From Acidovorax sp. (GTDB lineage: Bacteria; Pseudomonadota; Gammaproteobacteria; Burkholderiales; Burkholderiaceae_C), in contig JANJSZ010000042.1 in the NCBI GenBank assembly GCA_024711405.1, forward strand, positions 1 to 60,946: DNA of 60,946 bases. The letters are read 5' to 3'. Below the pieces are notes generated by a model that made no database searches, was not told the DNA's origin, and worked only from the letters and a program-made list of their open reading frames with translations. Positions 25,181-50,416 of this stretch are shown piece after piece (within the stretch, counting starts at the first letter, position 1; each line of letters begins with the position of its first letter). Position numbers and translations under genes: made by a program.

Positions 25181-25804
25181 AGCAACTCCATAGAAAAAGC
25201 CGGGCCGAGAAAGGGGGGAAGGGCCATGTAGGCGCGCGCGGATGCACCTCGATCGGCGCCAGCCGAGGTGTCGGGCATCAAGGGGGGCGGCGTGACGCCG
25301 CTCGTGATGTGGCTGCGCCGGCCCGAACGTGGTACGCGTCAGGCGGGCAGCATTGAAGGGGCGCGCGTGAGCGCGCCGCATTGATAGCCCCTAATCAGGG
25401 CAACTTTTGGGGCTTGGCTTTGCTGGCCTAATTTCCGGACATCGGAGATCGTTCAGTCGAACGCCCTCCACTGAGGTACAGGACGACCTCAAAGAGACTT
25501 TTGGCAAAAAAGCCATCGCGAGCAAAAGCCCACGAAATTTTTATCTGGGCAAGCAGAAATATCCGGCCTAGGGGCCTTTTGCTGGGATCGGGCCCAGCTT
25601 GTTCAGGGGCCCGCAAGTATTTTTGGTGCGGCGGGCTCACACCAGCAGGCCATAAAGCTAGCTCGCGCTAATCTAGCGGAGCTGATGGCTCTTTGTCAAT
25701 GCCCATTGAGCGCGTCCGATCAGAAGCTGACTGCCCGGTAACTTTATGCATGTGATCAGCAACTGGTCGATGGGACAAGAGGGCTGTTCCCTTCTGCCCT
25801 GTAT

Positions 25805-30962: not shown

Positions 30963-30976
30963 ACGGAGCCCACGCA

Positions 30977-33900
30977 ATGTTCAATTGGATCGTAAGGAAC
31001 AGCCTTCACAACCGCCTGTTCGTCCTGGCGGTCGCGGCGCTGCTGATGGTCTACGGGGCTATCACCGCATGGCGCACGCCAGTCGATGTGTTTCCTGACC
31101 TCAACAAACCCCTGGTCACCGTCTTGACGGAAGCAGGAGGTATGGCACCCGAAGAAGTCGAGCAACTGGTGACCTTCCCTCTGGAGACCGCGCTCAACGG
31201 CATGCCGGGGGTCACGCGCGTGCGCTCCACGTCAGGGGTGGGCCTGTCCATCCTCTATGCCGAGTTCGATTGGGGGACGGACATCTACCGCAACCGCCAG
31301 CTCGTTGCGGAGCGCCTGGCACTGGTGCGGGAGCAACTCCCAGGGGGCATCACGCCCGTCATGGGGCCAGTGTCTTCCATCATGGGCGAAGTCATGCTCA
31401 TCGCACTGCCGTTGGCGGCAGGCGATGGTAAGGCCGCTGCAGCGACACCCATGCAGGCCCGGGAGTACGCGGACTTCGTGCTGCGCCCAAGACTTCTGTC
31501 GATTCCAGGGGTGTCTCAGGTCATCCCTATCGGCGGCGAAGTACGTCAGTTGCGGGTGGAGCCTGATACCGCGCGCATGGCGCAGTTTGGGGTGACATTG
31601 ACACAGATTGAGCAGGCCCTTCGAGGCTTTGCGGGGAATGCGGGAGGTGGCTTCATCGACCTCAACAGCCGCGAATTCCTCATCCGCCACATCGGCCGTA
31701 CCAGCCGTGTCGAGGATCTGCAGGGTGTGGCCGTTGCCTGGAGGGACGGCCGAGCCATCTTGCTGGAACAGGTGGCCAATGTCCGGTTCGCTGCCGCCAT
31801 GAAGCGCGGCGACGCCGGATACAGCGGCGTGCCCGCCGTCATCGTCAGTGTGCAAAAACAGCCTGCGGCCGATACCGTCAAGCTCACCCACGCCATCGAA
31901 GCGGCATTAGGGGATCTCAAACAGGGGCTGCCCGTGGGCTTGGCTGCTCCGAAGGTGTTGTTTCGCCAGGCGGACTTCATCGAGGCGTCTATCGGCAACG
32001 TGACCGAGGCCTTGCGTGATGGTGCCATCATGGTAGCCATCGTGTTGTTCGCCTTCCTGTTGTCCGCGCGAACCACTTTGATCTCGCTCGTGGCGATTCC
32101 CCTGTCGCTGGCCGTGACAGCCATGGTCTTCCGGCTGCTGGACCAGTCCATCAACGTCATGACTCTGGGTGGCCTGGCCATTGCCATTGGCGAACTGGTG
32201 GACGACGCGGTGGTGGATGTGGAGAACATCCTGCGCAGGCTGAAGCAAAACCGTGCCCAGGGCAATCCACTGTCCATGCTGGAGGTCGTGCGTCGGGCGA
32301 GCGTGGAAGTCCGCTCGGGCATCGTCTACGCCACCGCCATCGTGGTGCTGGTGTTTGTGCCGCTCTTTGCGCTGCCGGGCATCGAGGGTCGCCTGTTCAC
32401 GCCCCTGGGCATCGCCTATATCGTGTCGGTGCTTGCATCGATGCTGGTCTCAATGACGGTGACGCCGGCGTTGTGCCTTTACCTGTTGCCGGGGATGAAA
32501 CGGCTGGACCATGGTGACAGCACCCTGGTCGCCTGGCTCAAGCGGCGGGATGCGCAAGTGCTCAGCTGGTCGTTTTCTCGCGCCAAGTTGCTGATGGCTG
32601 TCGCCGCACTGGCGGTGGCGGCTGCGGCGGCCAGTGTCCCGTTTTTCCCGCGCGCCTTTCTTCCGGCGTTCAATGAGGGCTCGCTGGTGCTGGGCATGGT
32701 GTTCAACCCGGGCACGGCGCTGGCGGAAGCCAATCGCATGGGCGCGTTGGCCGAGACGCTGATCGCTGAGGTCCCCGAGGTCACCCAGGTTGGGCGCCGG
32801 ACGGGACGCGCCGAGCTGGATGAACATGCCGAAGGCGTGCATTCGGCCGAGATCGATGTGGACCTGAAGCGGTCCGCCCGGGACCGCGAGGCCGTGATGG
32901 CAGATATCCGTGCCCGTTTGGCCGTCCTTCCAGCCCAGGTGGCCATTGGCCAGCCTATTTCCCACCGCCTGGATCACCTCTTGTCAGGGGTGCGGGCGCA
33001 GATCGCGCTCAAGATTTTCGGCGATGACACGGACACCTTGCGGGGCCTGGCCGAGCAGATGCGCCAGGGAGTCTCGGGCGTTCCAGGGCTGGTGGATTTG
33101 ACGGTGGAAAAGCAGGTGCTGATCCCCCAGATCACGGTACGGCTGGACCACCGCAAGGCCGCGCAGGTTGGGCTGTCCCCGGGGGAGGCTGTGCGGCTCC
33201 TACAGGCCCTGACAGATGGTGCCCATGGTGCGCAGATCGTGGATGGACTTCGCCGCTATGAACTGGTGCTGCGCCTGCCCGATGACAAACGCAGCCCGCA
33301 GGATCTGGCGCGCACACTGATCGACACCCCAGCGGGGCAGATACCGGTGTCTGCCATCGCCACGGTCGAGGAAACCGATGGCCCCAACCAGATTGGCCGA
33401 GAAAACGGTCGTCGGCGCATCGTGGTCTATGCCAACACGGACGGCTCCGACATGGGCCGCGTCATTGCAGACATTCGTGCGGTGATGGCAAAGACGCCAT
33501 TGCCACCGGGGACCTTTCTGAGTCTGGAAGGCCAGTTCCAGGCCCAGGAGCAAGCGATGCAACTGATCGTCGGCTTGTCGCTGGTGTCTTTGGCAATGAT
33601 CTTTCTCGTTCTGTATGTACGCTACAAGTCGGCTGTGTTGGCCGGGATCATCATGGCCAATATTCCGCTTGCGCTGATCGGCAGCGTGGCTGCGATGTGG
33701 CTGGCGGGGGTGAGCCTGTCGGTGGCCTCCATGGTGGGCTTCATCACGCTGGCGGGCATTGCCACGCGCAACGGGATTTTGAAGGTCAGCCACTACATCA
33801 ACCTGTGCAAGTTCGAGGGAGAGGTCTTCGGCCAAACCATGATCGTGCGCGGCTCGCTGGAGCGGTTGACCCCGGTCTTGATGACGGCGCTGGTGGCCGC

Positions 33901-34123
33901 CTTTGCGCTGACCCCGCTGCTGCTGGCGGCCGATGCACCTGGTAAAGAAATCCTGCATCCGGTGGCGGTCGTGATTTTTGGTGGACTCGTCAGCTCGACC
34001 TTGCTAGATACGCTGCTCACGCCTGTGATGTTCTGGCTGTTTGGAGAGCGGGCGATGAGGCGCCTGATCGAAGCTGATGCCCAGATGCAAACCGAGGGTA
34101 GAACGACGCTGGAAGCCTATTGA
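30977..34123 (+). CDS. Heavy-metal efflux RND permease (CzcA/CusA family)
   Basis: 1048 aa; [55 protein letters not shown]. Confidence 0.95.
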
Positions 34124-34224
34124 CTCCGCACAAATCACTCCAGTTTTCGCTGTTCCCGTAGGCATTTAGGCGCCGCCTTTTAAAGCGCGCCGTTTCACGC
34201 AATTTTTCATTCAAAGGAAACGCA

Positions 34225-34620
34225 ATGACCATTAAGTCCAAACTCTCCCAACTGACTGCTGGTGCTCTGATGCTTGCCGCATCTGCACTCGTCGCTCCTA
34301 CGGCAATGGCCCATGGAGCTGCCGCCCCCATGCATGGAGGTGTCGTGCAGACCGCCGCTGACTTGTCGTTTGAGCTGGTTGCCACTGGCGAAGGCGCGCA
34401 GATCTACGTGCAGGATCACGGCAAAGACGCGGATGCCTCGCGGTTCGAGGGCAAGCTGACGGTTCTCAACGGCGCAGACAAATCCGAAGCACCCCTGAAA
34501 CCATCAGGTGCGAACAAGCTGGAGGCTAAGGGTGTCACCTTGTCTAAGGGCGCCAAGGCCGTCGCGGTGCTGACCACCAGTAGCCAAAAGAGTATTACCG
34601 TGCGTTTCACGGTCAAATAA
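34225..34620 (+). CDS. Periplasmic protein associated with metal RND clusters
   Basis: Signal peptide ending AMA/HG, P.HGG motif, small beta-rich domain. Confidence 0.75.
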   Translation: MTIKSKLSQLTAGALMLAASALVAPTAMAHGAAAPMHGGVVQTAADLSFELVATGEGAQIYVQDHGKDADASRFEGKLTVLNGADKSEAPLKPSGANKLEAKGVTLSKGAKAVAVLTTSSQKSITVRFTVK

Positions 34621-34627
34621 GACACCC

Positions 34628-35683
34628 ATGGCGCACGAATCTCTGCCCCTTCCTGCACTGCGAGGTGGTCTGCTGGCTTTGCTGGCCGCAGCCTTGTTCG
34701 GTATCAGTACTCCCATGGTCCAGAGGCTGGGTACAGGGCTGGGGGCATTCACGACGGCCGCGCTGCTGTACGCAGGGGCGACTGTCGTTGGAGCCTTGTC
34801 CCTGCGCACCGCCGCCCACGAGGCCAGGTTGCAGAGATCCGATGCATGGCGCCTCATCGCCATGGCGGGATTCGGCGCCGCCCTGGGCCCTGTCGCCCTG
34901 TCCTGGGGATTGCAGCACACGAGCGGCGCCAGCGCCTCTCTCATGCTCACGTTGGAAGCGCTATTCACGGCCACGTTAGCGTGGTGGCTGTACAGCGAAA
35001 CCATGGACCGCCGCGTGTGGGCTGCCATGCTTCTTTTGCTGGCCGGTGGTATGGCTTTGGTCATGGACCAGGGCCTGCAGGGCGGCACGCAGCTGCTTGG
35101 TCTGCTTGCCGTGCTGTTGGCAACCGTGGCCTGGGGCGTGGACAACACCCTATCCCGGGGATTGGCCGAGCGCGATCCCAGTCAAGTCGTGATGGCCAAG
35201 GCGTCGCTTGGAGCCGCTGCGACAGCATGTCTTGCCATGGTGTCGGGAGAGCCTTTGCCCTCCGTGACAGCAGCTCTAGGACTCTTTGCAGTAGGGGCCA
35301 CGGGGTATGGCTTGAGTCTTCGGTTCTACCTTCTGGCGCAGCGGGCTTTTGGCGCGGCGCGGACTGGCTCCGTGTTCGCTTTTGCTCCTTTCATCGGTGC
35401 GGCTGTGGCCTTCGGCTTCGGTGAACGGTCTGCAGGCTGGTTGATGCTGCTCGGGGGGCTTCTGATGCTTGCGGGTGTGCTGCTGCATTTGGCAGAAAGC
35501 CACGGGCATGAACATGCGCATGAGCCGATGGAGCATGAGCATGCCCACCGTCACGACGATGGACACCATACGCACGCGCATGACGTGATGCCCACGGGGA
35601 GCCATAGCCACGTGCACTTCCATGAGCCGGTCACCCATGCCCATCCCCATGCGCCAGATGTTCACCATCAGCATAGGCATTGA
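34628..35683 (+). CDS. DMT/EamA transporter with a His-rich C-terminal tail
   Basis: About 10 TM segments; tail H.HEH.HE..EHEH.H.HDDGHH.H.H...HPH.PD.HH.H.H. Confidence 0.9.
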   Translation: MAHESLPLPALRGGLLALLAAALFGISTPMVQRLGTGLGAFTTAALLYAGATVVGALSLRTAAHEARLQRSDAWRLIAMAGFGAALGPVALSWGLQHTSGASASLMLTLEALFTATLAWWLYSETMDRRVWAAMLLLLAGGMALVMDQGLQGGTQLLGLLAVLLATVAWGVDNTLSRGLAERDPSQVVMAKASLGAAATACLAMVSGEPLPSVTAALGLFAVGATGYGLSLRFYLLAQRAFGAARTGSVFAFAPFIGAAVAFGFGERSAGWLMLLGGLLMLAGVLLHLAESHGHEHAHEPMEHEHAHRHDDGHHTHAHDVMPTGSHSHVHFHEPVTHAHPHAPDVHHQHRH

Positions 35684-35722
35684 CCCAACCAGATGTCTCA
35701 AGACTGTCGCAAAGGAACTTTG

Positions 35723-36100
35723 ATGATGAAAAAAATCAAGCTTTCGCTGGTTGCAGCGTTGGCATTCTTGATGATTTCTGGCTGCAGCACCCCTGTTTAC
35801 GAAAACCAATACGCTGTGTCCGAAGGCTGGAGAATCGGCAAGGTCACCAAACTGGTCACCGCAGAAGAATTCTTGAAGATGGGTAGCCCTCGCTGCCGGG
35901 GAATGGAGATTCGCCCCAATGGCCGCTTTGCATTCATTCAGACGCAAGTGACCCGAACGCGCGGTCACTTTGCCAAAGTGGATCCGGGCACTGGCATAGC
36001 AGTGGGCGACAAGGTCTACTTCAACGCATCGAAGTGTGACCAACCTCCAATAGTGCCGAAATTCCCGCATGGGTCCAAGACGGGGCAAGCGCTGTTGTAG
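35723..36100 (+). CDS. Putative lipoprotein
   Basis: RBS AAGGA; MMKKIK, hydrophobic stretch, lipobox ISGC. Confidence 0.65.
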   Translation: MMKKIKLSLVAALAFLMISGCSTPVYENQYAVSEGWRIGKVTKLVTAEEFLKMGSPRCRGMEIRPNGRFAFIQTQVTRTRGHFAKVDPGTGIAVGDKVYFNASKCDQPPIVPKFPHGSKTGQALL

Positions 36101-36116
36101 AGGCTGACTTGTAGCC

Positions 36117-36515
36117 TCAACGCGGTGGACTCTTTCTGACCGTACCCACATACACCACGCTGCCCGCATCGCGGTACTGCAATTGAACCCCGACACGTAC
36201 CACATCAAAGCAGACCGGTGAAACCTTGCTGACCTCTGGCAACAGCAAGCACAGCTGGTTGTCCTGCGCGCTCCAGCGTCCGGTGCGTGTGCGGCCGTTC
36301 TCCGAACGCTCCAGACGCCCATCCAGAAAGTAGTCATGCCCCCAATGACGCCCGTCGGTGACATGGTGCCCGCCCAGCGAGGAACGGATTTGCGCCGTGG
36401 TCAGTTTGGTTTCAGGGGGCGCTGCGCAGGCCAATGGCACCAGCGTCAAGCACAGGAAATGCGCGCACAACACCCTGCTGAAGCGGTGGAGCCACCGCTC
36501 AGCACCCGCCGTCAT
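36117..36515 (-). CDS. Hypothetical exported protein at the end of the chr operon
   Basis: ATGA-coupled to chrF; signal-like segment; GRW....QLCL...CFDV. Confidence 0.6.
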   Translation of the reverse strand: MTAGAERWLHRFSRVLCAHFLCLTLVPLACAAPPETKLTTAQIRSSLGGHHVTDGRHWGHDYFLDGRLERSENGRTRTGRWSAQDNQLCLLLPEVSKVSPVCFDVVRVGVQLQYRDAGSVVYVGTVRKSPPR

Positions 36516-36970
36516 GCCGCCGCGCTCGGTGGCCAATTGTGGGTTTCTGACTGGCACGATTGGCACCACGCATACAGCGCGTCGTACATCACCATGCCAT
36601 GCCCCAGCATTTCGTGGTCATTGCGGAAGGTCTGGGACAGACCGAGCGACAGCGCGTACAGGCCCGCAGACTGTGGCGCCAGGTCCAGTCGGGAGGTGTC
36701 CGCACCCCGCACGATCACGGCCAGTTGCTGCAGTGCGGGCTCGGTGAGGTCGTATTTTTTGAGAAAGGCGTCGAAGCTGCAATGCTCACCGTCGTGGGTC
36801 ATTTCCACGCCGGGCACGTCGTAGGGGATCGCACCTGTGTCTTGGGCCACCCGAAGCACGGAGGCCGCAGGCACGTAGAGAAACTCAGGTGCCTTGTCGA
36901 TGAACCGGGCAATCAGCCAGGGGCAGGCGATGCGGTCGATCTTCGGTCGCTCGCGGGTGACCCATTTCAT
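36512..36970 (-). CDS. chrF: Chromate resistance protein ChrF (ChrB C-terminal-like domain)
   Basis: MKWVTRERPKIDRIACPWLI.RFID, H.G..CSFDA, IVRGADT, YDALY.W. Confidence 0.9.
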   Translation of the reverse strand: MKWVTRERPKIDRIACPWLIARFIDKAPEFLYVPAASVLRVAQDTGAIPYDVPGVEMTHDGEHCSFDAFLKKYDLTEPALQQLAVIVRGADTSRLDLAPQSAGLYALSLGLSQTFRNDHEMLGHGMVMYDALYAWCQSCQSETHNWPPSAAA

Positions 36971-37886
36971 GTGGCACCTCCTGGTGTTTCCAGAGGCAGG
37001 CCAGCGGCTTGCCAGGCCTCAATGCCACCCACGAGGTAGCGTGCATCCAGGCCGCGTGCACGCAAGGTGAGGGCCGTTGAGCGCCCGATGTCCTTGCCGC
37101 GTAGGCAGTACAGCAGAACCGGCTTCGATGCATCGAGTTCCTGGCTCCACTCATGCACGCGCGACGGGTCGCGCCAGGTGCCCCGGCAATGACCTGCGGG
37201 CTTTGCAGATAGTCCTCTTGGCGCCTCACGTCGAGCTTGCCTGGCACACCAGCCAATGCACCGCCCGTGTCGATGCCAAACGCCAACGCATCCGCCTCGA
37301 CAGCAGCGCCGTAGCGCTTGTAAACCTTGTCCCACTGAATGTTGGCCATGAACGCATCCACATAGGCGCCTGCCTTGGCGCCAAAGTCCAGGTGGTAGGC
37401 GTGCTCGTACATGTCCAGTGCCAGCACCGGAGTGGCGCCCGCCAGAAGGTGCGTGTGGTCTGCTGCCCAGTGGTTGATGAGGCGGCTTTCGCGGGAAGAC
37501 CAGGACAGCAAGGCCCATCCCGATCCACCGCCCATGGCCTTGGCCAGCCCGATGAATTGGCTGCGCCAGGCGTCCACGGAGCCAAAGTCACGCGTGAGCG
37601 CAATGTTGAGGCCACACGATGGCAGCACACCATTGCCCCCCAGGTTGTCGAAGTACAGCTCGTGCAGGAACGCCGAGTTGGCCGCGATCAATTCCTCGCG
37701 CTTGAGGCCGTTGATGGTGAAGGTGGCAGCTGTGCTCCAGTCCAGCACTGCGAGTTCGCTGCGGATGGCGTTCAGGCGCTTGACGGCGCCAGCGTAGTTG
37801 TTCTCGTAGTGGCTGGTGATCAGGTGATTCGACAAGCCAGGCAGCTGATCGGTATTCAGCGTCAGGGGGCGGATTTGGTACTTCAT
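36967..37886 (-). pseudogene. chrC: Fe/Mn superoxide dismutase (ChrC)-rhodanese (ChrE-like) fusion, frameshifted near 37180
   Basis: SOD motifs SHYENNY, LHELYF, DMYEHAY in one frame up to VIAGA; the rhodanese continuation TWRDP...LYC..G...YLVGGIEAW is in another frame. Confidence 0.85.
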
Positions 37887-37917
37887 GCAGTTCTCCTTCA
37901 GATGGCTAGGCTCTGGG

Positions 37918-39126
37918 TCAGACGTGGGTAATAAGCGGGTAGACGGCCAGGCCAATCAAGGCTGCAGCAAGCACAACCACCGGCTCGGGCAGCTTCTTGA
38001 ACCGCCACAGCACAGCCGTGGTGGCAAGAAACAGCGCAGCGGTGGGCAGGTCCACGATGGACCGCTGGCCCAGTACCACCACCGCCCCCGCAATAGCACC
38101 CACGGCAGCGGCAGTCACGCCATCCACAAACGCCACCACACCAGGGTGCTTGCCATGCTTTTTGAAGTACGGCGCCGGGATCACTGTGAGCAGATAACAG
38201 GGCAGAAAAGTCGCAGCCGCAGCAACCACCGCGCCCCAAAAGCCGCAGGTCAAAAAACCAATGAACCCCGTGGTGATGACGACCGGGCCTGGGGTGATCA
38301 TGGCCACGGCCACGGCGTCTACGAACTGGCGATCGGTCAGCCATGCGTACTCTTTGACCACCCCGCCGTAGAGGAACGGCACGATGGCCAGGCCGCTGCC
38401 AAAGACGAATGCCCCTGCATAAGTGAAGTACGCGGCAATCTGCCCGAGCTTTTGCCAGTCGAGGTGGTCCAGGCTGAGTGCCCCGGCGATGGGGGCTGCC
38501 CATGCCATGCTGTGCAGCCGCCCCCCAGCCCGCTTCAATGGGCCGCGCACGGCCCACACCAACAACCCCGCGCCGAGAAAGACCCAGATCACTTCGGACT
38601 GGGTGGCAATGGTCACGCCCGCGCTGACCAGGTAGATGGCCCCGAGCAGCCTGTCCTTGCCCACGCTCTTGGTCGTGAGCTTGTAGGCACTCAAGGCAAT
38701 GATGCCGATGACGGAGGCGCCCACGCCATAGAAGACTGCCTGCATCCAGGAGATGCCGCCGTAGGCTTTGTAGGCAGCCCCCAGTGCCACCACCATCGCA
38801 AAAGACGGCAGCACAAACGCCACGCCGACCAGCGTGGCGCCCCACAAGCGGAAATGCACATAGCCGAGGTAGATGGCCAACTGCGCAGCCAAAGGGCCTG
38901 GCATGAGCTGGGCCAGGGCCATGCCCTCCTTGTAGTCGGCATCTGAAATCCAGCCGCGTTGCTCCACCAGATCGCGGTACATGTAGCCGACCAGTGCCAC
39001 GGGGCCACCAAAGCCCAGCGTGCCCAGGCGCAGCATGTACAGCACCAGTTGCCACAGCGTGTAGACAGGAGCACTGGTAGTGCTGGCATCCGGCGCTGCC
39101 GTTACCTTGGGATCGTTCATGTTCAT
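37918..39126 (-). CDS. chrA: Chromate efflux transporter
   Basis: GFGGP, AQLMPGP, FGSG, AMITPGP motifs of the CHR family. Confidence 0.95.
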   Translation of the reverse strand: MNMNDPKVTAAPDASTTSAPVYTLWQLVLYMLRLGTLGFGGPVALVGYMYRDLVEQRGWISDADYKEGMALAQLMPGPLAAQLAIYLGYVHFRLWGATLVGVAFVLPSFAMVVALGAAYKAYGGISWMQAVFYGVGASVIGIIALSAYKLTTKSVGKDRLLGAIYLVSAGVTIATQSEVIWVFLGAGLLVWAVRGPLKRAGGRLHSMAWAAPIAGALSLDHLDWQKLGQIAAYFTYAGAFVFGSGLAIVPFLYGGVVKEYAWLTDRQFVDAVAVAMITPGPVVITTGFIGFLTCGFWGAVVAAAATFLPCYLLTVIPAPYFKKHGKHPGVVAFVDGVTAAAVGAIAGAVVVLGQRSIVDLPTAALFLATTAVLWRFKKLPEPVVVLAAALIGLAVYPLITHV

Positions 39127-39144
39127 TCCTGAGGGGGTGAGGTG

Positions 39145-40107
39145 CTACGGTTTGCGGTGGGTAGAGAAATGCGCATGGAGCGAGTCCAGCACCCCGCCCA
39201 CATCGGCCAACAGGGTGTCGTCGTCTGGCCAGCGCTTGCGTGCACCGGCCAGCACGGCTTCGAAGCCACCCGCTTCGGGCGTGGTCGCGCCCCCCACATC
39301 CAGGGCATGCACCATGGCCCCCAGGCGCTGCAGGCCGCGATCACCGTCCAGGCCAAAGCTCGCCAGCAGCACCTCAAACGTCACCCTCTCACCCACATGC
39401 GAAAACGTGGCGCCGTCGAAGTCAAAGCCCAGTGCATCCGCAGGGCAGTCTGTGATGGCGTTCAGCCACACAAAGCGCGCGCTGGGGTCGATGAAGCGCT
39501 GAATGAGCCAGGCGCTGGCCACGCGATCGACCCAGAGATGGCGGCGCGTCGCCCAGAGCCGCCCTTGGTATTGCATGCGGTCACGCCGTGCAATACGGCC
39601 CGCTGTGGCCTGAGGCTCGCCGGGTGACTGCAAGGCCTCCACGGCGTTGGTGAAGTCGCGCCACTGGGCTTCGGCCCGGATGGAGGCTTCGCCCGGAAAG
39701 AAGTCGATCTTGCGGATCGCCTCGTAGGTGCGCGCATATCGGCGCTGCAAGCGCTGAAGCTCGGCGCCCACCAGCGTGGGCAAAAGCTGGCGGGCTTGCG
39801 CCAACTCGTCCAGCCAAGGCATGTAGTCGGCTGTGCGGTCAAACAGTGCCTGATAGGCCGCTTGCTCAGCCATGTCCTGGGCATGCACATGGAGCAGCCA
39901 GGCTTGCCCGCCTTCCTGCAGGGTCTCGTCGGCCAGCGTTTGCAGTTGCGCAGCCTGTTCCGTCCGTGCTGGCAATAGGTACGCCCCGTCGCGTAGGGCA
40001 GCACAGCCCAGTGCCTTGACAGCGCGCCAAATGCGCATGCGCGCCGTCGCTGCCGCAGATGGGAGACTGACGACAAAGGCCAGCCAAGAGTCAGAGGTGA
40101 GAGACAT
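39145..40107 (-). CDS. chrB: Chromate-responsive regulator
   Basis: RMRIWR..K.LG...LRDG.Y.LP, IDFF, WATR...VDR.ASAWLI.RFID, FDFDGA.FSH. Confidence 0.93.
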   Translation of the reverse strand: MSLTSDSWLAFVVSLPSAAATARMRIWRAVKALGCAALRDGAYLLPARTEQAAQLQTLADETLQEGGQAWLLHVHAQDMAEQAAYQALFDRTADYMPWLDELAQARQLLPTLVGAELQRLQRRYARTYEAIRKIDFFPGEASIRAEAQWRDFTNAVEALQSPGEPQATAGRIARRDRMQYQGRLWATRRHLWVDRVASAWLIQRFIDPSARFVWLNAITDCPADALGFDFDGATFSHVGERVTFEVLLASFGLDGDRGLQRLGAMVHALDVGGATTPEAGGFEAVLAGARKRWPDDDTLLADVGGVLDSLHAHFSTHRKP

Positions 40108-40767: not shown

Positions 40768-40806
40768 TGTCAACTAAGGTGTAAACTGACAACTGAACTG
40801 TCAACC
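40768..40806 (+). promoter_or_regulatory. Operator-like repeat cluster upstream of the three-gene operon
   Basis: TGTCAACT 40768, TGTAAACT 40780, TGACAACT 40787, TGTCAACC 40799; includes the palindrome TGACA-N7-TGTCA. Confidence 0.6.
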
Positions 40807-40828
40807 AAGAGAAGATTGGAGCTTACCA

Positions 40829-41629
40829 GTGAGCGAGAGGATGTCGAACGCGCCGGTGTACTACGCGCTCGCGCAGGCGCACTTTAATCCTGTCGCAGCG
40901 ATGTCCAAGTACGTGGATCAGATCCAGGATCGTCTGCGGCGCGAGGGATATCCGTTGTTCGAGCCGCAACAGGTCACGCACCTGGTTGTGCCGGGCCCTG
41001 GCCAAGCGCAGCAAGCAGAGCCGCAGATTACGCATACGGTCTCCTGGCTCATCACGCGCAGCGACCGTACAGCCGGCTTCATCCTAGCGCCGTCTGCAAT
41101 CACGTACCACACGACCCACTACGACACGCACAACGAGTTCATACCGGAGCTACTGCGCGGCTTGGCGGCCGTGCACGAGGTGGCCACCCTCGATCATGTC
41201 AGTCGGTTGGGCCTTCGCTACCTAGATGCCGTGTTGCCTCGCGCCGGAGAGAGCGTGGAGCAGTACCTCGTCGGTGGATTGCACGGCATTGAGTTCAATG
41301 CAACGCAGCGGTACAGGCTGACGGAATCTGTCTTTGGGACGGACACCGGCCCACTGGTGCGGACCGGGACGCTCGTGACACGGGTGCATAGGATGACCGC
41401 GCCTTTGGGGTTCCCGCCAGACATGCAGCCCAACGGCTTGATGATCAATCCGAAATTCGAGGTGAAGGAGGCCCGGGCGCATGCGGTCATCGATACGGAC
41501 CACTTTGTCGAAGGCAGCATGCCTATTGATATGGACATCCTAGATAAGCAGGTGCTCTCGCTGCATGCGACCATCAAGTCTGTCTTCGGAGCGACCACGA
41601 CGGATAACGCGCGCGATGCATGGGCCTAA
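40829..41629 (+). CDS. TIGR04255-like protein
   Basis: NAPV..ALAQ..F N-terminus, I...LR...YP, TT.Y, RLGLRYLD, IDTD.F, LH..IK..F...TT..A...W C-terminus. Confidence 0.8.
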   Translation: MSERMSNAPVYYALAQAHFNPVAAMSKYVDQIQDRLRREGYPLFEPQQVTHLVVPGPGQAQQAEPQITHTVSWLITRSDRTAGFILAPSAITYHTTHYDTHNEFIPELLRGLAAVHEVATLDHVSRLGLRYLDAVLPRAGESVEQYLVGGLHGIEFNATQRYRLTESVFGTDTGPLVRTGTLVTRVHRMTAPLGFPPDMQPNGLMINPKFEVKEARAHAVIDTDHFVEGSMPIDMDILDKQVLSLHATIKSVFGATTTDNARDAWA

Positions 41630-41648
41630 ACCAGCCGAAACCGACGCC

Positions 41649-42296
41649 ATGTACACCGCGACACTACCTACTTACCGACCGATGCCGTTCGCCGCGCCGA
41701 TTGGCGCTGCCGCCACTGCAGCCTTTGCGTTGCTTGGCTCGGCCCTTGCGGTCGGTGGCACGGGCAGCGTCTTCGACATCTCTCGCGCAGGTGACTGGCG
41801 CAAGATGTTGGAAGCGCGAGTTCCCTTTCACGTCGACGTCGAGATGGCTGATGACAGCCAGGAGCAACGCCCTGATCTGCGATCAGCATCTGACCACCTC
41901 GGCAACATCCGCCAGGTGTTGAATCCGGCCATCGCTGATCTGGCCACGGTGTTCGGCGTCTCCAGACAGGCAATCTACAAGTGGATCGGCGGAGAAGCGA
42001 CGCCAGAGCCTGACAAGTTCGAGCGGATTCACGCCCTGAGCCATGCAGCCGACGCTTTTCGAGATGCTGACATCACTCGTGCGTCTTCCATGCTGAAGAT
42101 GAAGGCATTTGAGGGCCGGTCCTTGATGGATCTCGCTGCTGCCGGTCAACTCTTGCCATCGCACATCCAGTCGCTGATCGCCGAATCCCAGGCGATGGAT
42201 GCAGCTTACGACCGATCAGGCTTGGCGAAGTCGAAAGCGAAGCCCTCGGAAGATTGGCGTACCGAGGTGTCCATTCCCGGATCCCCCGAGCGATAG
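41649..42296 (+). CDS. HTH protein with a hydrophobic low-complexity N-terminus (putative antitoxin/regulator)
   Basis: IADLATVFGVSRQAIYKWIGG XRE-type HTH; N-terminal AAATAAFALLGSALAVGGTG. Confidence 0.75.
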   Translation: MYTATLPTYRPMPFAAPIGAAATAAFALLGSALAVGGTGSVFDISRAGDWRKMLEARVPFHVDVEMADDSQEQRPDLRSASDHLGNIRQVLNPAIADLATVFGVSRQAIYKWIGGEATPEPDKFERIHALSHAADAFRDADITRASSMLKMKAFEGRSLMDLAAAGQLLPSHIQSLIAESQAMDAAYDRSGLAKSKAKPSEDWRTEVSIPGSPER

Positions 42297-42311
42297 GTCG
42301 GGGGGCGATAG

Positions 42312-43169
42312 ATGCTGGCGCGCGATACGGACTGGCGACAGGGTGATCTTATAACTTGCCAGGCAGCTGCTGCATTGGGTTTGGTCGGCGTGACCCACCA
42401 CGGACACCGCGTCATTGTCATCACCCATGACTGCGACTTGCCGCATGCAAGCGAGCACCGCGTCGAGGTCATCGTCGCCGAGTTGGTTGTCAAGGACCCA
42501 AAGCCTGACCCGCAGCTCTCCTACGCCAAGAACCCGCGACGACTCCACCTCGCCTACGCGGGCGCCGACGCTGCACCGTTGATTCTTGAGCTCCGGCATG
42601 GTGATCGCCGAAGCGTACCGAAAGGTGACTTCGCCGAGCGCGCAGTCAAAGACAACAGTCTCACACTGCCGGTTGACGCGAAGCGTGCCCTGAAGCAATG
42701 GCTTGCCGCGCGATACGGCCGACCGGTCTTCCCCAATGCTTTCGAGGAGCGGCTGCGCAAGCTATCTGGCAAGCGTACCGTCGAACAGCTGATCGCCAAG
42801 ATTCTGGAACCCGACGCGAAGTACCTGGTCGGGCTGTTCTTCGATCTGGGCAAGCACCGGGGCGCAGAAGCCGTCGAAGGGGAGCCATACGCCCTGTCAA
42901 TGTCCATTGTGTACGACGCAACCGAGGGCGGCATCAACGCGAGGCTGTCGGCTGAGCGGGTCGCCGGGCAGCTGCGCGAGCTGTTCGAGAAGACCTACGG
43001 CATGCCCGACTTAGCCACGGAGATCGCGCTCGACGCTTGCGAAGCCGTGGCAGACACCCACCTGACACTGGCTGATCTACGCCGCGTGGATCAGTGGCGC
43101 CTGGAGTTCATCAGCCTGCGAGATGATGATCAGGGCGACTTCCTTCCGGTTGGTGAAATACCGGCGTAG
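42312..43169 (+). CDS. Hypothetical protein (putative effector)
   Basis: 285 aa; WRQG...VIVITHDCDL...KNPRRLHL...WLAARYGRP.FP..FE.RL; 15 nt after the previous stop. Confidence 0.75.
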   Translation: MLARDTDWRQGDLITCQAAAALGLVGVTHHGHRVIVITHDCDLPHASEHRVEVIVAELVVKDPKPDPQLSYAKNPRRLHLAYAGADAAPLILELRHGDRRSVPKGDFAERAVKDNSLTLPVDAKRALKQWLAARYGRPVFPNAFEERLRKLSGKRTVEQLIAKILEPDAKYLVGLFFDLGKHRGAEAVEGEPYALSMSIVYDATEGGINARLSAERVAGQLRELFEKTYGMPDLATEIALDACEAVADTHLTLADLRRVDQWRLEFISLRDDDQGDFLPVGEIPA

Positions 43170-43468
43170 GGGCAAGGGGTAGCCGCGTCATAGAGATGGT
43201 TGCTACAGCGGCACTCCACCAGAATCGCGGTGAGGCACTCCAATCACCGATATGTGACCAATACGGTGTGAATCAGTCGCTTCAGGGCGAACTACCGCTA
43301 TCGCTGCACAACGGTCATTCAAAGTGGAGCTGAGCTTGTCAGATCAGGGTCGACCCAAGCAACGCCATCGGCTCTTTATGGGCGGCAACTGCAATTCCAC
43401 GTAGGGCACCCAGTACGTAAACGCACGGCAAACCCATGTTGACCGCCGATGGCGACCATTGCTGACGA

Positions 43469-45025
43469 TCAGATGTCAGTGGGCTGCCAGCGGTGCGGCA
43501 AGAGCTCGTCGATACGGCTGGCCTTGTGCGTGGGCAGCTTGGTGAGCACGTCCTTGAGGTACGCATAGGGGTCGTGCCCGTTCATGCGGGCCGACTGAAC
43601 CAGGCTCATCACCGCCGCCGCCCGCTGGCCCGCGCGCAGGCTGCCGGCGAACAGCCAATTGGCTCTGCCAATGGCAATCGGCCGGATCTGGTTTTCGATC
43701 CAGTTGTTGTCCACGGGCAGTTGCCCGTCATCGATGAAGCGCGTCAGTGCCGTCCAGCGCCGCAGGCTGTAATCCAGGGCCCTGGCAGTCGCCGAGCTGT
43801 CCGGCAGCTTTTGCCGCTGCAGCGTCATCCACTGGTGCAGCGCATCGAGGATGGGCTTGGAGTGCTGCTGCCGAATGCTCTGGCGTTGATCAGCGTTCAG
43901 CTCCTTGACCTCGCGCTCGATGTCGTAGACCTTGGCGAACTGCTCCAAGGCGAACCCGGCGATCTGGCTTTTGTTTGCCGCATGCAGGTCAAAGAATTTT
44001 CGTCGGGCGTGCGCCAGGCAGCCGACCTCGGTCACGCCGTTGGCGATCGTGACTTTGTACCCGCCGAAGTCATCGCACACCAGGCTGCCGCGCCAGTCTC
44101 CGAGGAAGCGGCGAGCATGCTCACCCGCCCTGGACTCGCAGAAGTCGTAGACCACGGCCTTCATGTCTTCGAAGGCGCCTGGCGCGTAGGCCCACAGGTA
44201 GGCCCGGTGGGTCGTGCCCTTGCCGGGCTTGAGCATCTGCACCGGCGTCTCGTCGGCGTGCAGCACGCGCTGGCCCAGTATTTCGGCCTTGAGCGCATCA
44301 ACCAGTGGTTGCAGCCGCACGCCACAGGTGCCCACCCACTGCGCCAAGGTGGAGCGAGGGATGGCCAGACCGGCGCGTGCGAAGATGCTTTCCTGGCGGA
44401 ACAAAGGCAGATGGTCAGCGTATTTGGCCACCAGCACCTGGGCCAGCAGGCCCGTGGTGGGGATGCCCTTGTCGATCACATGCGCCTCGACCGGCACCTG
44501 GGTGATGGTCTCGCACTTGGCGCAGGCCCACTTGCCACGGATGTGGCGCTCCACTGTGAACACGCCGGGCACATAGTCCAGCTTTTCGGCCACGTCTTCA
44601 CCGATGCGCTTCATCGCACAGCCACAGGCGCAGGTAGTCAACTCAGGCTCGTGGCGGATCTCGCGCCGCGGCAGGTTGGCCGGCAGCGGCTGGCGCTTGG
44701 GTTGCTGTTTGGCTTGGGGCGCTGGCGCAGGCGGCTGCAGTTGCTCGATCTCGACGGCGACCGCTGCCAGGTCGGCCTCGATCTCGTCTTCAAGCAGGCT
44801 GCGCTGCTCGGCGTTGAAGCGCTCGGACTGTGCGGCGAACTTCATGCGCTTCAAGAGCGCGTTCTCGTGGGCGAGCTTGGCGTTGAGCGCCTGGCTGTGC
44901 TTGAGTTCGGTTTGGTGGCGGGCGATTTGCGCGTCCTTGTCGCTCACATGGCCCATGAGGCTGGCGACCATCTCGCGCAGTTGCTGTGCGCTGAGATTGT
45001 TCAGGGATTGTTGCTGCACCACCAT
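43469..45025 (-). CDS. tnpC: IS66 transposase TnpC
   Basis: Coiled coil, C.CG zinc finger, KYADHLP, LHADET, CLAHARRKF, DNN..E..IR, LLP..W. Confidence 0.96.
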   Translation of the reverse strand: MVVQQQSLNNLSAQQLREMVASLMGHVSDKDAQIARHQTELKHSQALNAKLAHENALLKRMKFAAQSERFNAEQRSLLEDEIEADLAAVAVEIEQLQPPAPAPQAKQQPKRQPLPANLPRREIRHEPELTTCACGCAMKRIGEDVAEKLDYVPGVFTVERHIRGKWACAKCETITQVPVEAHVIDKGIPTTGLLAQVLVAKYADHLPLFRQESIFARAGLAIPRSTLAQWVGTCGVRLQPLVDALKAEILGQRVLHADETPVQMLKPGKGTTHRAYLWAYAPGAFEDMKAVVYDFCESRAGEHARRFLGDWRGSLVCDDFGGYKVTIANGVTEVGCLAHARRKFFDLHAANKSQIAGFALEQFAKVYDIEREVKELNADQRQSIRQQHSKPILDALHQWMTLQRQKLPDSSATARALDYSLRRWTALTRFIDDGQLPVDNNWIENQIRPIAIGRANWLFAGSLRAGQRAAAVMSLVQSARMNGHDPYAYLKDVLTKLPTHKASRIDELLPHRWQPTDI

Positions 45026-45090
45026 GGCAGCCAGTGTGCCAAGGATGGCCCTGCGCTGTCATGCGCAGATCCACCGATTGCGCGCCGGCT

Positions 45091-45423
45091 TCAGACCATG
45101 GTGATAATGCCGGCGTTTCCCATGCGTTGCCAGGGCAGGCCCAGCACCAGGGCGTCAAGCTGGACAGGCTCCAACTGCCACTGCTCATTGCCTGGCGCCG
45201 GCCAGACGAACTTCCCCTGGTGCAGGCGGCGAGCGGCCAGCCAGATGCCGATGCCGTCGTGCACCAGCACCTTGATGCGGTTGGCGCGTCTGTTGGCGAA
45301 CAGGTAGGCGTGATGAGGGTGGGCAGCACCGAACACGCTGACCACCCGGGCCAGCGCCGTGTCGGTGCCGGCGCGCATGTCCAGCGGGGCCGTGGCAAGC
45401 CAGGCAGCGTCGATACGGATCAT
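45091..45423 (-). CDS. tnpB: IS66 accessory protein TnpB
   Basis: P.DMR.G, YLF.NRR..RIK.L..DG.G.WL..RRL..G.F.W. Confidence 0.95.
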   Translation of the reverse strand: MIRIDAAWLATAPLDMRAGTDTALARVVSVFGAAHPHHAYLFANRRANRIKVLVHDGIGIWLAARRLHQGKFVWPAPGNEQWQLEPVQLDALVLGLPWQRMGNAGIITMV

Positions 45424-45968
45424 TGCCGCAGCACCTGGAGCAAACCCTGCAATGCGCGGGAACACTCGCCAGCAGCGGCCACCGGCCAATTGACCGTCAC
45501 GAGGGTGCCGTGATGACAGCACTCGATGCGGATGTCTGATGAGGGAGTTGCCGATGCAGCACTTGGGGCAGCTTGCGCACCCGCTGGCTGAGGCCCCATC
45601 GCCGGCGAGCCCAGCGTCATCGCGATGAAGGCGGGCACGGTGCTGGCATGAGGCAGATGCGCCGGGGCACGAACAGGCTGTGCATTGGCCATTGGCTCAG
45701 CCGCTGCATCGTCGCAGTGCGGGGCGATGCCGGACGCCACAGCATGCGCGGTATCGCAGGCGCTCTGGTGCAGGCCCAGACGATGCTCCTTGAGCCAGCG
45801 ATGCAGCACATTGGCATTCATGCCATGTTCACGCGCCGTGGCGGCAATCGATGCGCCGGGCTGCTGGCACGCGGCGATCAGTTCAACCTTGAATTGCGCG
45901 CTGTAGACCCGGCGCGTGCGGGGGGCAGAGTAGCGCGAATTGGGGATCTCTTGAGACATGGTGTGCAC
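45420..45968 (-). CDS. tnpA: IS66 TnpA (HTH)
   Basis: RRVYS.QFK...PGASIAA.AREHG.NAN.L.RW; ATGA-coupled to tnpB. Confidence 0.9.
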   Translation of the reverse strand: MHTMSQEIPNSRYSAPRTRRVYSAQFKVELIAACQQPGASIAATAREHGMNANVLHRWLKEHRLGLHQSACDTAHAVASGIAPHCDDAAAEPMANAQPVRAPAHLPHASTVPAFIAMTLGSPAMGPQPAGAQAAPSAASATPSSDIRIECCHHGTLVTVNWPVAAAGECSRALQGLLQVLRQ

Positions 45969-46051
45969 GATGGTTTACGTGGACACGATGGTGCTTGCAA
46001 TTCCTCATTCGAGGTAGATGGGTTGGCCGGACGGATACCCCAGTACAGACC

Positions 46052-46162
46052 CTATCCGCCCCAGTCCTCTCCAAATACCTGCGCCTGTTGCAAGATTAGC
46101 TCCGCCGCAGCCTCCTGCAGATCCGGCGGGTACTTGTACTTGCGCAGAATGCGCTTGACCTG
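46052..46162 (-). pseudogene. 3' relic of a second type I hsdR (DUF3387-like C-terminus)
   Basis: Minus strand reads QVKRILRKYKYPPDLQEAAAELILQQAQVFGEDWGG*, the characteristic end of one HsdR subfamily; too short for the ORF track. Confidence 0.8.
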
Positions 46163-48274: not shown

Positions 48275-49663
48275 TTATAGTATCAGCCTGCTTGGAAATT
48301 CGAGGCTGAACTTTGTTCTCCCCGAGCCGGATTCAACCGTCACACGTCCTCCGTGCGCTTGTGCAATGGCCCGGGTAATTGATAGTCCGAGGCCAGCACC
48401 ATCGGATTGTGGGTGCGACCGAGACGGGTCGGCACGGTAGAAGCGGTCAAACAGACGAGGAATGCTTTGAGGATCAATGTCCTCCCCCGTGTTCTCGACC
48501 GTTACGACAATGGCTTGCGCTGTCTCGCTGATGTCAATCGTTACATCGCTATGGTCTTTGGAATGGCGCAATGCGTTCGACAACAGATTGCTCAGCGCTC
48601 TGCGAAACATCAATCGGTCACCCAAGATGGCTCCATCACCGAAATGGTGTAGCGTAACACCCTTTTCTTCAGCGACGGCTTCATAAAATTCTAATAAGGC
48701 CTGGGCTTCCTTGGCTGCAGAAAACCGCTCCTTGTTCGGCAAGTCAACCCCACGATCCGTCTTGGCCAGGAACAACATATCCGACACCATGCGCGCCAGG
48801 CGTTGGAATTCCTCCGCGTTCGACGCCAGTATGTCTCGATAGGTGTCAGCGTCTCGCCGGGTGGCGAGTGCAACCTGGGTTTGCGTCAGCAGGTTGCTGA
48901 TGGGGGTGCGCAGCTCATGCGCCAGGTCTGAAGAGAACTCGGACAGTCGTTGGAAGTCATTTTGCAGCCTGTCCAGCATTTTGTTGAGCTCCTGCGCCAA
49001 GTCAGCCATCTCCACAGGAACTGCCTCGATGGGCATTCGCTCATCGAGACGATGAGAACTGACCGTTGTGGCCTGGGTCTTCATGGCGCGCAACGGTGCC
49101 ATGCCTTTGTAGGCTGCGAACCACCCAAGCACCCCGCTGACCAAGATGGCACCAAGGGCATAGAGCGTCAGCGTGCGCTGCAATTGCGCCATGAATTGCG
49201 TGTGATCATGCATGTCAATGGCGATCAGGACATCCAGCGGTGGCGCCGCACTATGGACAGGATGGAAGCGCAAGTTCAGCGCGCGAAATTCACGGCCTTG
49301 ATCTTCCCAACTCTGAATCTCAGCGGTACGATTTTTCGGTGTTGGCGCATCCAACGTGGCTGGTGCTTGAAACCCTTCAGTCCTGAAAATAATATTCCCA
49401 TTGTCATCTTTGACACTGACAGACAACCCGTGGTGATTGGTCAATGCCTCGCGCAAGCGCGATTGAATGTCATCGGTGGAGTTGGCATTGACTATGATGT
49501 TTTCGATCAGGTGCTGTTTGTCTTTCAGCGTGATTCGATCCAGTTCCAGGAAGTGGCTTTCGGTCGCAACTAGGAACAATATTCCAAGCCCCAGCACGAC
49601 GGCCGCAGCCACTATCGTGAAAAAGATGGCCAAACGATGGGTGAGCGAAAAGAACCGGAACAT
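48275..49663 (-). CDS. cusS: Heavy-metal sensor histidine kinase (CusS/CopS-like)
   Basis: Two TM, HAMP, AHELRTP, NLLSNA, RFYR.D, GLGL. Confidence 0.9.
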   Translation of the reverse strand: MFRFFSLTHRLAIFFTIVAAAVVLGLGILFLVATESHFLELDRITLKDKQHLIENIIVNANSTDDIQSRLREALTNHHGLSVSVKDDNGNIIFRTEGFQAPATLDAPTPKNRTAEIQSWEDQGREFRALNLRFHPVHSAAPPLDVLIAIDMHDHTQFMAQLQRTLTLYALGAILVSGVLGWFAAYKGMAPLRAMKTQATTVSSHRLDERMPIEAVPVEMADLAQELNKMLDRLQNDFQRLSEFSSDLAHELRTPISNLLTQTQVALATRRDADTYRDILASNAEEFQRLARMVSDMLFLAKTDRGVDLPNKERFSAAKEAQALLEFYEAVAEEKGVTLHHFGDGAILGDRLMFRRALSNLLSNALRHSKDHSDVTIDISETAQAIVVTVENTGEDIDPQSIPRLFDRFYRADPSRSHPQSDGAGLGLSITRAIAQAHGGRVTVESGSGRTKFSLEFPSRLIL

Positions 49664-50347
49664 TCAAGCGCTCTCCGGCGCTTCCAGCACGTAGCCCATA
49701 CCCCGCACGGTCTGGATCAACTTGACGTCCTGGCCTTCGTCGATCTTCAGGCGCAAGCGCCGCATTGCCACTTCGATCACGTTGGTGTCGCTGTCGAAAT
49801 TCACGTCCCATACCTGCGAGGCGATCAAGGAGCGCGGCAAGACCTCGCCATGGCGGCGCATCAGCAGCTCCAAAAGACCGAATTCCTTGGCCGTCAGGTC
49901 GATGCGCTTTCCGGACCGGCTCACACGCCGGCGCAGAAGGTCCAGTTCCAGGTCAGCCACTTGCAGCGTGGTGGCTTCCATACCGGTTCGACCCCGCCGC
50001 AGGATGGTGCGTACACGCGCCAGCAACTCGGCAAACGAAAACGGTTTGACGAGGTAATCGTCGGCCCCCAACTCCAGCCCTTTGATGCGGTCTTCCACCT
50101 GATCACGGGCCGTGAGGAACAGCACGGGCATCTGTCGCCCCTGGCTGCGCAGGCTGCTCAGCACCTGCCACCCGTCCATGCCCGGCAACATGACGTCCAG
50201 GATCACCAGATCATGGTCACCCTCAAGCCCATGGTGCAGACCATCTATACCGTTGGTGACCAGATCAACGGTGTAACCTGCCTCGCGTAGGCCTTGCTTC
50301 AAGTAGTCGCCGGCTTTTGGCTCATCTTCAACGATCAGAATTTTCAC
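49664..50347 (-). CDS. cusR: Heavy-metal response regulator (CusR/CopR-like)
   Basis: GTG start [33 protein letters not shown]. Confidence 0.92.
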
Positions 50348-50399
50348 GGTCTTGCTCCTGGGCGCTAGTTTGCCTGCGTATCGGCCCATCGGATCAAAC

Positions 50400-50416
50400 A
50401 TGTCATTTTTGTAATC
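50400..50416. promoter_or_regulatory. Putative CusR/CopR box in the divergent promoter
   Basis: ATGTCATTTTTGTAATC resembles TGACA-N4-TGTAAT. Confidence 0.5.

What the first reader, a model, noticed from the sequence alone, without database searches (positions are those of the whole stretch)
40768..43169. Uncharacterised three-gene operon (TIGR04255-like, HTH, unknown): candidate tripartite toxin-antitoxin-chaperone or anti-phage system
Seen: three intact co-oriented genes with 19- and 15-nt gaps, preceded by four TG(T/A)(C/A)AAC repeats including a TGACA-N7-TGTCA palindrome. The middle gene has an XRE-type HTH and an odd hydrophobic low-complexity N-terminus. With the IS66 removed, the operon ends ~250 bp from the relic of a type I hsdR, so it once stood in a defence neighbourhood. 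Inference: gene 1 could be a chaperone/sensor, gene 2 an autoregulating antitoxin with a chaperone-addiction-like segment, and gene 3 (WRQG...VITHDCDL, loosely reminiscent of PemK/MazF-like barrels) the effector. I know of no named system with this composition.
Basis: partly seen in the sequence, partly recalled or inferred. Interest (0 to 1): 0.8.

Follow-up and report, generated by a model that had tools for sequence, protein, structure and literature searches.

The report
Three-gene MazF-fold phage-defence candidate
These three genes travel together through many bacteria and prophages and likely form an undescribed toxin-antitoxin-helper immune module, in which a helper of predicted kinase-like shape would keep a predicted RNA-cutting toxin switched off until a virus attacks.

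Summary
In detail: three intact genes, 19- and 15-nt gaps, four leader repeats, IS66 and an hsdR relic are as described. The trio is a conserved mobile unit: same order in 29 of 29 close loci, 20 of 21 evaluable loci from genome samples and 50 of 54 viral-database loci, across three phyla. Gene 3 is predicted as a MazF/CcdB-fold domain (Z 8.8) fused to a motif-less nucleotidyltransferase-like domain. Gene 2 is an XRE-HTH protein whose variable N-terminus keeps a G[TS]G spot (33 of 45; shuffles 3). Gene 1 (TIGR04255) best matches the arginine-kinase/McsB catalytic fold (Z 8.8), then TBP, without sequence homology. It also heads operons with YhaV-PrlF, PIN and HNH effectors. The one genome lacking gene 1 has a gene 2 lacking the extension. 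Best reading: a TAC-like anti-phage module with a different helper; toxicity, binding and defence are untested. No PADLOC match and no describing paper found; DefensePredictor's tables list TIGR04255 clusters as predicted, untested defence genes. This scan noted other TIGR04255-like cassettes (other third genes) on other DNA, none matching this trio by sequence.

The parts
40768..40805 (+). Conserved leader with TG[TA][CA]AAC repeats; likely promoter/operator bound by gene 2
   Evidence: Unique cluster in the genome; conserved in 28 related loci with a boundary about 60 bp upstream of gene 1. No sigma-70 consensus hit. Binding untested.
40829..41629 (+). Gene 1, TIGR04255 protein, 266 aa; predicted curved beta-saddle like the guanido-kinase catalytic domain and TBP; proposed helper/sensor
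   Evidence: (pLDDT 92.8, pTM 0.89). Conserved Y98, R126, R130, Y131, D222, D224.
41649..42296 (+). Gene 2, 215 aa; variable N-terminal extension + XRE HTH + helical C-terminus; proposed antitoxin/autorepressor
41757..41768 (+). G37-T38-G39-S40 element after a hydrophobic stretch in gene 2; proposed gene-1-dependent element
   Evidence: G37 invariant in 99 sequences; G[TS]G in 33 of 45 non-redundant extensions against shuffle mean 3.0, max 10.
42312..43169 (+). Gene 3, 285 aa; predicted MazF/PemK/CcdB-fold domain (res 6-138) + nucleotidyltransferase-like domain without catalytic motifs (res 137-268); proposed toxin
   Evidence: (pLDDT 90.7).
43417..46038 (-). IS66 inserted downstream (context, not part of the module)
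   Evidence: target duplication at 43409-43416 and 46039-46046.
46052..46162 (-). 3' relic of a type I hsdR, about 35 codons (context)
   Evidence: PF11867 E 1.3e-8; 75% identical over 32 aa to a stretch of contig C248.

Best explanation
This is a mobile three-gene module that likely works as an anti-phage toxin-antitoxin system with a dedicated helper, in which gene 3 would be a MazF-fold RNA-cutting toxin, gene 2 its antitoxin and autorepressor, and gene 1 would keep gene 2 functional by engaging its hydrophobic G[TS]G extension. Phage infection would divert or inactivate gene 1, gene 2 would fail and the toxin would stop translation in the infected cell. Shown: the operon, its conservation, mobility, family labels and the motif. 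Predicted: the folds. Inferred and untested: toxicity, neutralisation, the gene 1-gene 2 contact, operator binding and phage triggering.
For: Fixed trio: 29 of 29 close loci (L001 is identical in protein sequence, L009 and L028 carry frameshifts); 20 of 21 evaluable loci from genome samples; 50 of 54 IMG/VR loci; five annotated plasmid/phage records read, from Deinococcota, Cyanobacteria and Gammaproteobacteria, all show it. Sporadic spread: 8 of 401, 13 of 401 and 9 of 401 genomes, 0 of 12 in the host's family. Gene 3 N-domain matches MazF-mt3 (Z 8.8, rmsd 3.3, 102 aligned), S. aureus MazF (8.1) and CcdB (8.0); the listed Foldseek rows are all of this fold. TIGR04255 precedes swappable effectors: YhaV (E 7e-46) with an N-extended PrlF-like gene (E 0.006) in L050, PIN in L038 and L041, HNH in L040 and L046. 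TAC systems show the same helper + extended antitoxin + variable toxin logic (bioRxiv 10.1101/2024.02.24.581848, abstract and passages). Natural experiment: G365 (100% complete) has genes 2 and 3, no TIGR04255 anywhere, and its gene 2 lacks the hydrophobic G[TS]G extension. Neighbours hit PADLOC at E<=1e-50 in 12 of 26 loci (Hma, BREX, type I RM, STK) against 2 of 20 random regions of the host genome (Fisher p 0.011). DefensePredictor Table S4 lists 8 TIGR04255 clusters as predicted defensive (PMC13092281 supplement rows).
Against: No experiment on any member was found. The enrichment is not independent: counting the six Hma loci once gives 7 of 21 against 2 of 20, p 0.13, and one of the 12 hits (L019, RmuC) is generic. 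Gene 3's MazF match is fold-only (15-20% identity, Foldseek E about 0.01); the position I align by eye with the MazF catalytic arginine (recalled) is not conserved, and the invariant residues are a different set, H39-D40-C41-D42, R76, W130, R137. Gene 1's best fold matches are guanido kinases and TBP, not known chaperones. The G365 case is n=1, with no further example in its family (1 of 4) or in metagenomes. 12 of 45 extensions lack G[TS]G. The extension here is N-terminal, whereas the HigA ChAD is C-terminal with aromatic anchors.
Confidence: 0.45

Rival explanations
1. Gene 1 is an enzyme or nucleotide sensor, not a holdase: it uses a guanido-kinase-type saddle to modify gene 2 (for example the threonine of G-T-G or an HTH arginine) or to sense a nucleotide, and this switches the toxin.
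For: Best structural matches cover the whole arginine-kinase catalytic domain (Z 8.8, rmsd 3.7-4.1, 181-190 of 266 aligned) and McsB (Z 8.0, rmsd 4.2, 180 aligned), above TBP (Z 7.0-7.6, rmsd about 5). R126, R130, D222 and D224 are 88-92% conserved in divergent members. A short exact motif in the partner suits a substrate site.
Against: No profile homology to two fetched guanido kinases (hhalign probability 0.1, shallow template) or to any PDB sequence. The EEDH motif seen in those kinases has no conserved counterpart in gene 1 (by eye). Z near 8 can reflect a common arrangement.
Confidence: 0.22
2. The module is a selfish addiction or stabilisation cassette for islands, plasmids and prophages, with no anti-phage role.
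For: MazF/CcdB/Kid folds are classic addiction toxins (established knowledge). It is found on plasmids and next to integrases; in this window it lies in a metal-resistance island; 14 of 26 close loci have no strong defence neighbour.
Against: Repeated placement beside Hma, BREX, type I RM and STK systems, carriage in 54 viral-database contigs, and a three-gene design that simple addiction does not need.
Confidence: 0.15
3. Gene 3 is not a free RNase. The MazF-like barrel and the dead nucleotidyltransferase-like domain form a self-inhibited or non-nucleolytic unit, and gene 2's hydrophobic segment anchors the complex in the membrane rather than acting as a helper-dependent tag.
For: Canonical MazF catalytic positions are not evidently kept, and a cysteine is invariant. 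The hydrophobic stretch reaches KD 1.8 over 19 residues in the window and about 2 or more over 15 residues in several homologues. CcdB shares the fold and is not an RNase (established knowledge).
Against: Many homologues have a non-hydrophobic extension yet keep G[TS]G (L039, L056, L037), and TIGR04255 operons elsewhere end in recognisable nucleases.
Confidence: 0.13

Closest known systems
Toxin-antitoxin-chaperone systems (HigBAC, CmdTAC; bioRxiv 10.1101/2024.02.24.581848, abstract and passages read)
   Same: Three genes; antitoxin-like protein with a variable extension; one third component serving varied toxins; prophage carriage.
   Different: The third gene is TIGR04255, whose best fold matches are guanido kinase/TBP; the extension is N-terminal with a G[TS]G spot, not a C-terminal aromatic ChAD; order is helper-antitoxin-toxin; toxin is MazF-fold plus nucleotidyltransferase-like.
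MazEF / PemIK / CcdAB type II toxin-antitoxin systems
   Same: Predicted toxin fold of gene 3 residues 6-138.
   Different: 285-aa two-domain toxin, no PemK Pfam hit in 131 members, XRE-HTH partner, near-obligatory third gene, different conserved residues.
Xre-RES / MbcTA / ParST (PMC12204516, passages read)
   Same: XRE-type HTH antitoxin that represses through promoter repeats; 5 of 99 gene-2 homologues hit Xre-like-HTH weakly.
   Different: No RES toxin; the MbcA/ParS C-terminal family was not among the 25 of 30 families shown.
DS-42 (PRO1) of DefensePredictor (PMC13092281, supplement rows read)
   Same: Three-gene prophage cassette: 238-aa unknown, 190-aa middle gene, nuclease-type third gene; marked defensive (the one screen row shown: Bas1, -log EOP 1.1).
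   Different: Third gene is an MBL hydrolase; no homology of its first gene to TIGR04255 could be shown here.
Type II Gabija GajC (PMC13069673, passages read)
   Same: A MazF-like domain used as an anti-phage effector outside a classical MazEF pair.
   Different: Partner is a UvrD helicase; no TIGR04255 in that paper's text or its one supplement.

Membership tests
TAC systems | SecB-like chaperone as third component | tested here: inconclusive
   No SecB Pfam hit. Best folds are guanido kinase and TBP. No direct superposition on SecB could be run.
TAC systems | Antitoxin with a variable, poorly folded extension | tested here: met
   56-107-residue variable extension before the HTH in 45 non-redundant homologues; it is N-terminal, unlike HigA's.
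TAC systems | Extension makes the antitoxin depend on the third gene | not testable with these tools
   Only the single co-loss in G365 bears on it.
TAC systems | Phage protection triggered through the helper | not testable with these tools
   Needs phage challenge.
MazF/PemK toxins | MazF/CcdB barrel fold | tested here: met
   Z 8.0-8.8, rmsd 3.3-3.6, 95-107 aligned.
MazF/PemK toxins | PemK_toxin family profile | tested here: not met
   0 of 131 members hit it at E<=0.05.
MazF/PemK toxins | Catalytic Arg/Thr pair (positions recalled) | tested here: inconclusive
   By-eye alignment only; equivalent columns are not conserved.
Minimal nucleotidyltransferases (MNT) | Fold | tested here: inconclusive
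   HI0073 Z 6.8, rmsd 3.3, 100 aligned; MNT antitoxin Z 6.3; below the Z 8 guide.
Minimal nucleotidyltransferases (MNT) | G[GS] and DxD catalytic motifs (recalled) | tested here: not met
   Strands 172-178 and 193-201 show neither in the 131-sequence alignment; strand assignment by eye.
Guanido kinases / McsB | Catalytic-domain fold | tested here: met
   Z 8.0-8.8 over 172-190 residues.
Guanido kinases / McsB | Sequence profile and EEDH catalytic motif | tested here: not met
   No Pfam hit; hhalign probability 0.1; no conserved acidic motif in the strand pair 82-95.
DS-42 | Homologous first gene | tested here: inconclusive
   HMM E 0.73; hhalign probability 0.1 with a 2-sequence template; not folded.
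DS-42 | MBL hydrolase effector | tested here: not met
   Gene 3 is MazF-fold.
Named PADLOC 2.0 systems | Profile match of the components | tested here: not met
   Genes 1 and 3: 0 families at E<=1; gene 2 only weak HTH hits.

The most novel reading that the evidence does not exclude
TIGR04255 is the hub of a large undescribed class of bacterial immune systems. A protein with the arginine-kinase/McsB catalytic fold acts as a universal sensor or modifier that controls G[TS]G-tagged antitoxins and licenses interchangeable nucleases (MazF-fold, YhaV, PIN, HNH): a second, independently invented TAC-like logic, with TIGR04255 present in about 15% of the genomes sampled from this class (44 of 301).
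Probability: 0.3. Interest if true: 0.85.

Novelty: new variant of a known kind. Interest (0 to 1): 0.68.

Why it matters
It gives a testable role to TIGR04255, a common family with no described function. If the helper-dependent switch is real, bacteria have evolved the TAC trick twice on unrelated scaffolds, and a whole set of 'hypothetical' three-gene cassettes in prophages and defence islands becomes a family of phage sensors with swappable effectors. The MazF-fold protein with an invariant HDCD motif and a fused nucleotidyltransferase-like domain would also be a new toxin subfamily.

Tried and rejected
Complex prediction of gene 1 (alignment A3) with gene 2 residues 1-80 (A4): no answer, score 0.01 in two runs, controls not folded, no evidence either way. 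SecB was not listed in any fold search of gene 1; an unlisted family is not excluded. AdoMetDC hits for gene 1 (Foldseek E 6e-4) were set aside: TM 0.29, rmsd 14-17, and the E-S pair at 166-167 is not conserved. An internal duplication in gene 1 was not detectable by sequence (probability 0.7). PDB sequence searches gave nothing for genes 1 and 3 and only weak generic HTH hits for gene 2. The ESM Atlas returned only unnamed or TIGR04255 clusters. No MbcA/ParS antitoxin was in the host genome for comparison. No sigma-70 promoter and no terminator excess by consensus scan. The hsdR-relic rows used the wrong frame and are void; replace them. Literature: 'TIGR04255' is in 0 papers of the full-text library; searches listed no description of this trio (listings and abstract starts only). 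Subscription papers, bioRxiv supplements, DefensePredictor's Table S1 and supplementary PDF, and the cut part of Table S4 could not be seen and may mention it.

Full report
Observation. The three ORFs, the 19- and 15-nt gaps and the four leader repeats are at the stated coordinates. The repeat cluster is unique in the 3.3-Mb assembly (765 single matches, one cluster). It is conserved in 28 related loci for about 60 bp upstream of gene 1, where similarity ends. Three homologues break the TGACA-N7-TGTCA palindrome but keep the 12-bp-spaced direct repeat, so the operator is more likely a tandem site. IS66 lies at 43417-46038 with an 8-bp duplication, and a 35-codon hsdR 3' end follows on the minus strand, about 250 bp from the operon without the IS. 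The window is an island with czc and chr metal-resistance genes, an integrase and an intact hsdMSR 26 kb upstream. All three genes are under purifying selection (6 loci).

A conserved mobile unit. Gene 3 has 801 homologues in one search and 1242 representatives at 50% clustering. All 29 close loci carry the three genes in order. In samples of whole genomes the gene 3 profile matched 8 of 401, 13 of 401 and 9 of 401 (the first two include the host, the samples overlap, and three matches are weak partial hits). Of 21 evaluable loci, 20 have all three genes; I dropped L087 and L164 (contig ends) and L092, L168 and L169 (weak partial hits). In IMG/VR, 50 of 54 loci have all three; three are cut by a contig end and one is a weak partial hit. 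Many of these are near-identical, and I did not annotate their surroundings. Of 8 plasmid hits I read four, plus one of two phage-record hits; all five show the trio, in Meiothermus, Gloeocapsa, Klebsiella, Pseudomonas and Acinetobacter records.

Gene 3. The model is confident (pLDDT 90.7). Residues 6-138 match MazF, CcdB, Kid and ToxN-type folds (best Z 8.8, rmsd 3.3, 102 aligned). Residues 137-268 match minimal nucleotidyltransferases more weakly (Z 6.8, rmsd 3.3, 100 aligned). No family profile recognises it. The nucleotidyltransferase-like half lacks the catalytic motifs as I recall them. The barrel conserves H39-D40-C41-D42, R76 and a W130/R134/Y135/R137 helix rather than the recalled MazF Arg/Thr pair. 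A related QGD...[ST]xxCD pattern recurs in third genes of six more distant TIGR04255 loci. RNase activity is therefore an inference from fold and context.

Gene 2. It has an XRE/Cro HTH and a helical C-terminus of no assigned family. Its N-terminal 56-107 residues diverge freely but keep G[TS]G, usually after a hydrophobic run: 33 of 45 non-redundant sequences drawn from 98 loci, against a shuffle mean of 3.0 and maximum of 10. Relatedness inflates this count. HTH antitoxins of the Xre-RES type repress through promoter repeats (PMC12204516, passages), which is the model for autoregulation here.

Gene 1. TIGR04255 is confirmed and occurs in 44 of 301 genomes of the class (the tally includes the host and G039, an unpublished genome whose locus L048 is in no alignment and supports no other claim). 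The model (pLDDT 92.8) is a long curved sheet with helices on one side. Best matches are arginine kinases and McsB across the whole catalytic domain (Z 8.0-8.8, rmsd 3.5-4.3), then TBP (Z up to 7.6, rmsd about 5). There is no sequence homology to guanido kinases and no EEDH-type motif, so an enzyme role is open. TBP-like domains are listed among candidate sensors fused to bacterial Schlafen nucleases (PMC13056530, one passage).

TIGR04255 as a hub. Among 28 other TIGR04255 loci (excluding the window and G039), 11 match the gene 3 profile, two of them weakly (nine of these helped build the gene 2 alignment, so only the gene 3 hits are independent). Others end in YhaV with an N-extended PrlF-like gene (L050), PIN (L038, L041) or HNH (L040, L046), or in unassigned genes. 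Their middle genes also have Ser/Thr/Gly-rich variable N-termini (by eye). One constant component, an extended antitoxin-like gene and a swappable toxin is the TAC design (bioRxiv 10.1101/2024.02.24.581848, passages). In G365, genes 2 and 3 sit behind an unrelated ATPase-like gene, the complete genome has no TIGR04255, and gene 2 has its own ribosome site and a short hydrophilic N-terminus without the motif. This is the co-loss the model predicts, but it is one case.

Defence context. Up to three called genes on each side were scanned with PADLOC for 26 of the 29 close loci (L001, L004 and L006 lacked flanks; 118 proteins, capped at 500 aa) and for 20 random 12-kb regions of the host genome (117 proteins). 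At E<=1e-50, 12 of 26 against 2 of 20 hit; at 1e-15, 15 of 26 against 7 of 20. The contexts are Hma/WYL, BREX, type I RM and STK. With the six Hma loci counted once the difference is not significant (p 0.13). DefensePredictor lists 8 TIGR04255 clusters as predicted defensive (PMC13092281 Table S4 rows). No protein named TIGR04255 appears in its table of tested units (0 hits in Table S6). DS-42 has a similar layout, but I could not show homology.

Verdict. The operon is real, widespread and, as far as my searches reach, undescribed. It most likely works like a TAC-type anti-phage module (0.45), with an enzymatic helper (0.22), plain addiction (0.15) or a non-RNase membrane-anchored unit (0.13) as rivals; some conflict role is likely at about 0.7-0.8. 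It is not filed as a TAC or MazEF member. New variant of a known kind; interest 0.68.

Noticed in passing
L093:5280-6781 (G365:C128): Two-gene version (genes 2+3) with no TIGR04255 in the genome and no hydrophobic G[TS]G extension; a natural control for experiments.
   Followed up: yes
L050:1483-3091: TIGR04255 followed by an N-extended PrlF-like gene and a clear YhaV toxin: a known toxin-antitoxin pair apparently recruited behind TIGR04255.
   Followed up: partly
L042:2220-2711, L051, L058, L059: TIGR04255 operons whose middle gene carries a NWDGYG-like domain with no Pfam hit, followed in L042, L058 and L059 by unassigned 170-180-aa genes.
   Followed up: no
window 19658-26989 (minus strand): Run of AAA_22 ATPase (394 aa), 743-aa unknown, 908-aa protein with a weak integrase hit and a 263-aa unknown; looks like an uncharacterised integrative or transposition module.
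   Followed up: partly
window 7265-14814: Intact type I restriction-modification operon (hsdM, S, R) next to a tyrosine recombinase at 15478-16749.
   Followed up: partly
L002:147-2411, L003:4049-6313, L007:4045-6309, L014:280-2544: The same 755-aa gene lies divergently next to the trio in four loci; no Pfam hit (L002) and no PADLOC hit in its first 500 aa; beside an STK-type gene in L007.
   Followed up: partly
L082 (G000:C115:8975-20974): Defence island in the host genome with Mza, a cytosine methyltransferase and AbiE.
   Followed up: no
L150:2797-5233: DS-42 and a 58%-identical variant (L152) sit between antiterminator-like and holin/lysozyme-like genes of prophages, transcribed against them.
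   Followed up: partly
window 27878-40107: Metal-resistance cargo: czc-type RND efflux, chrB/chrA/superoxide dismutase cluster; cus-type two-component system at 48275-50401.
   Followed up: no
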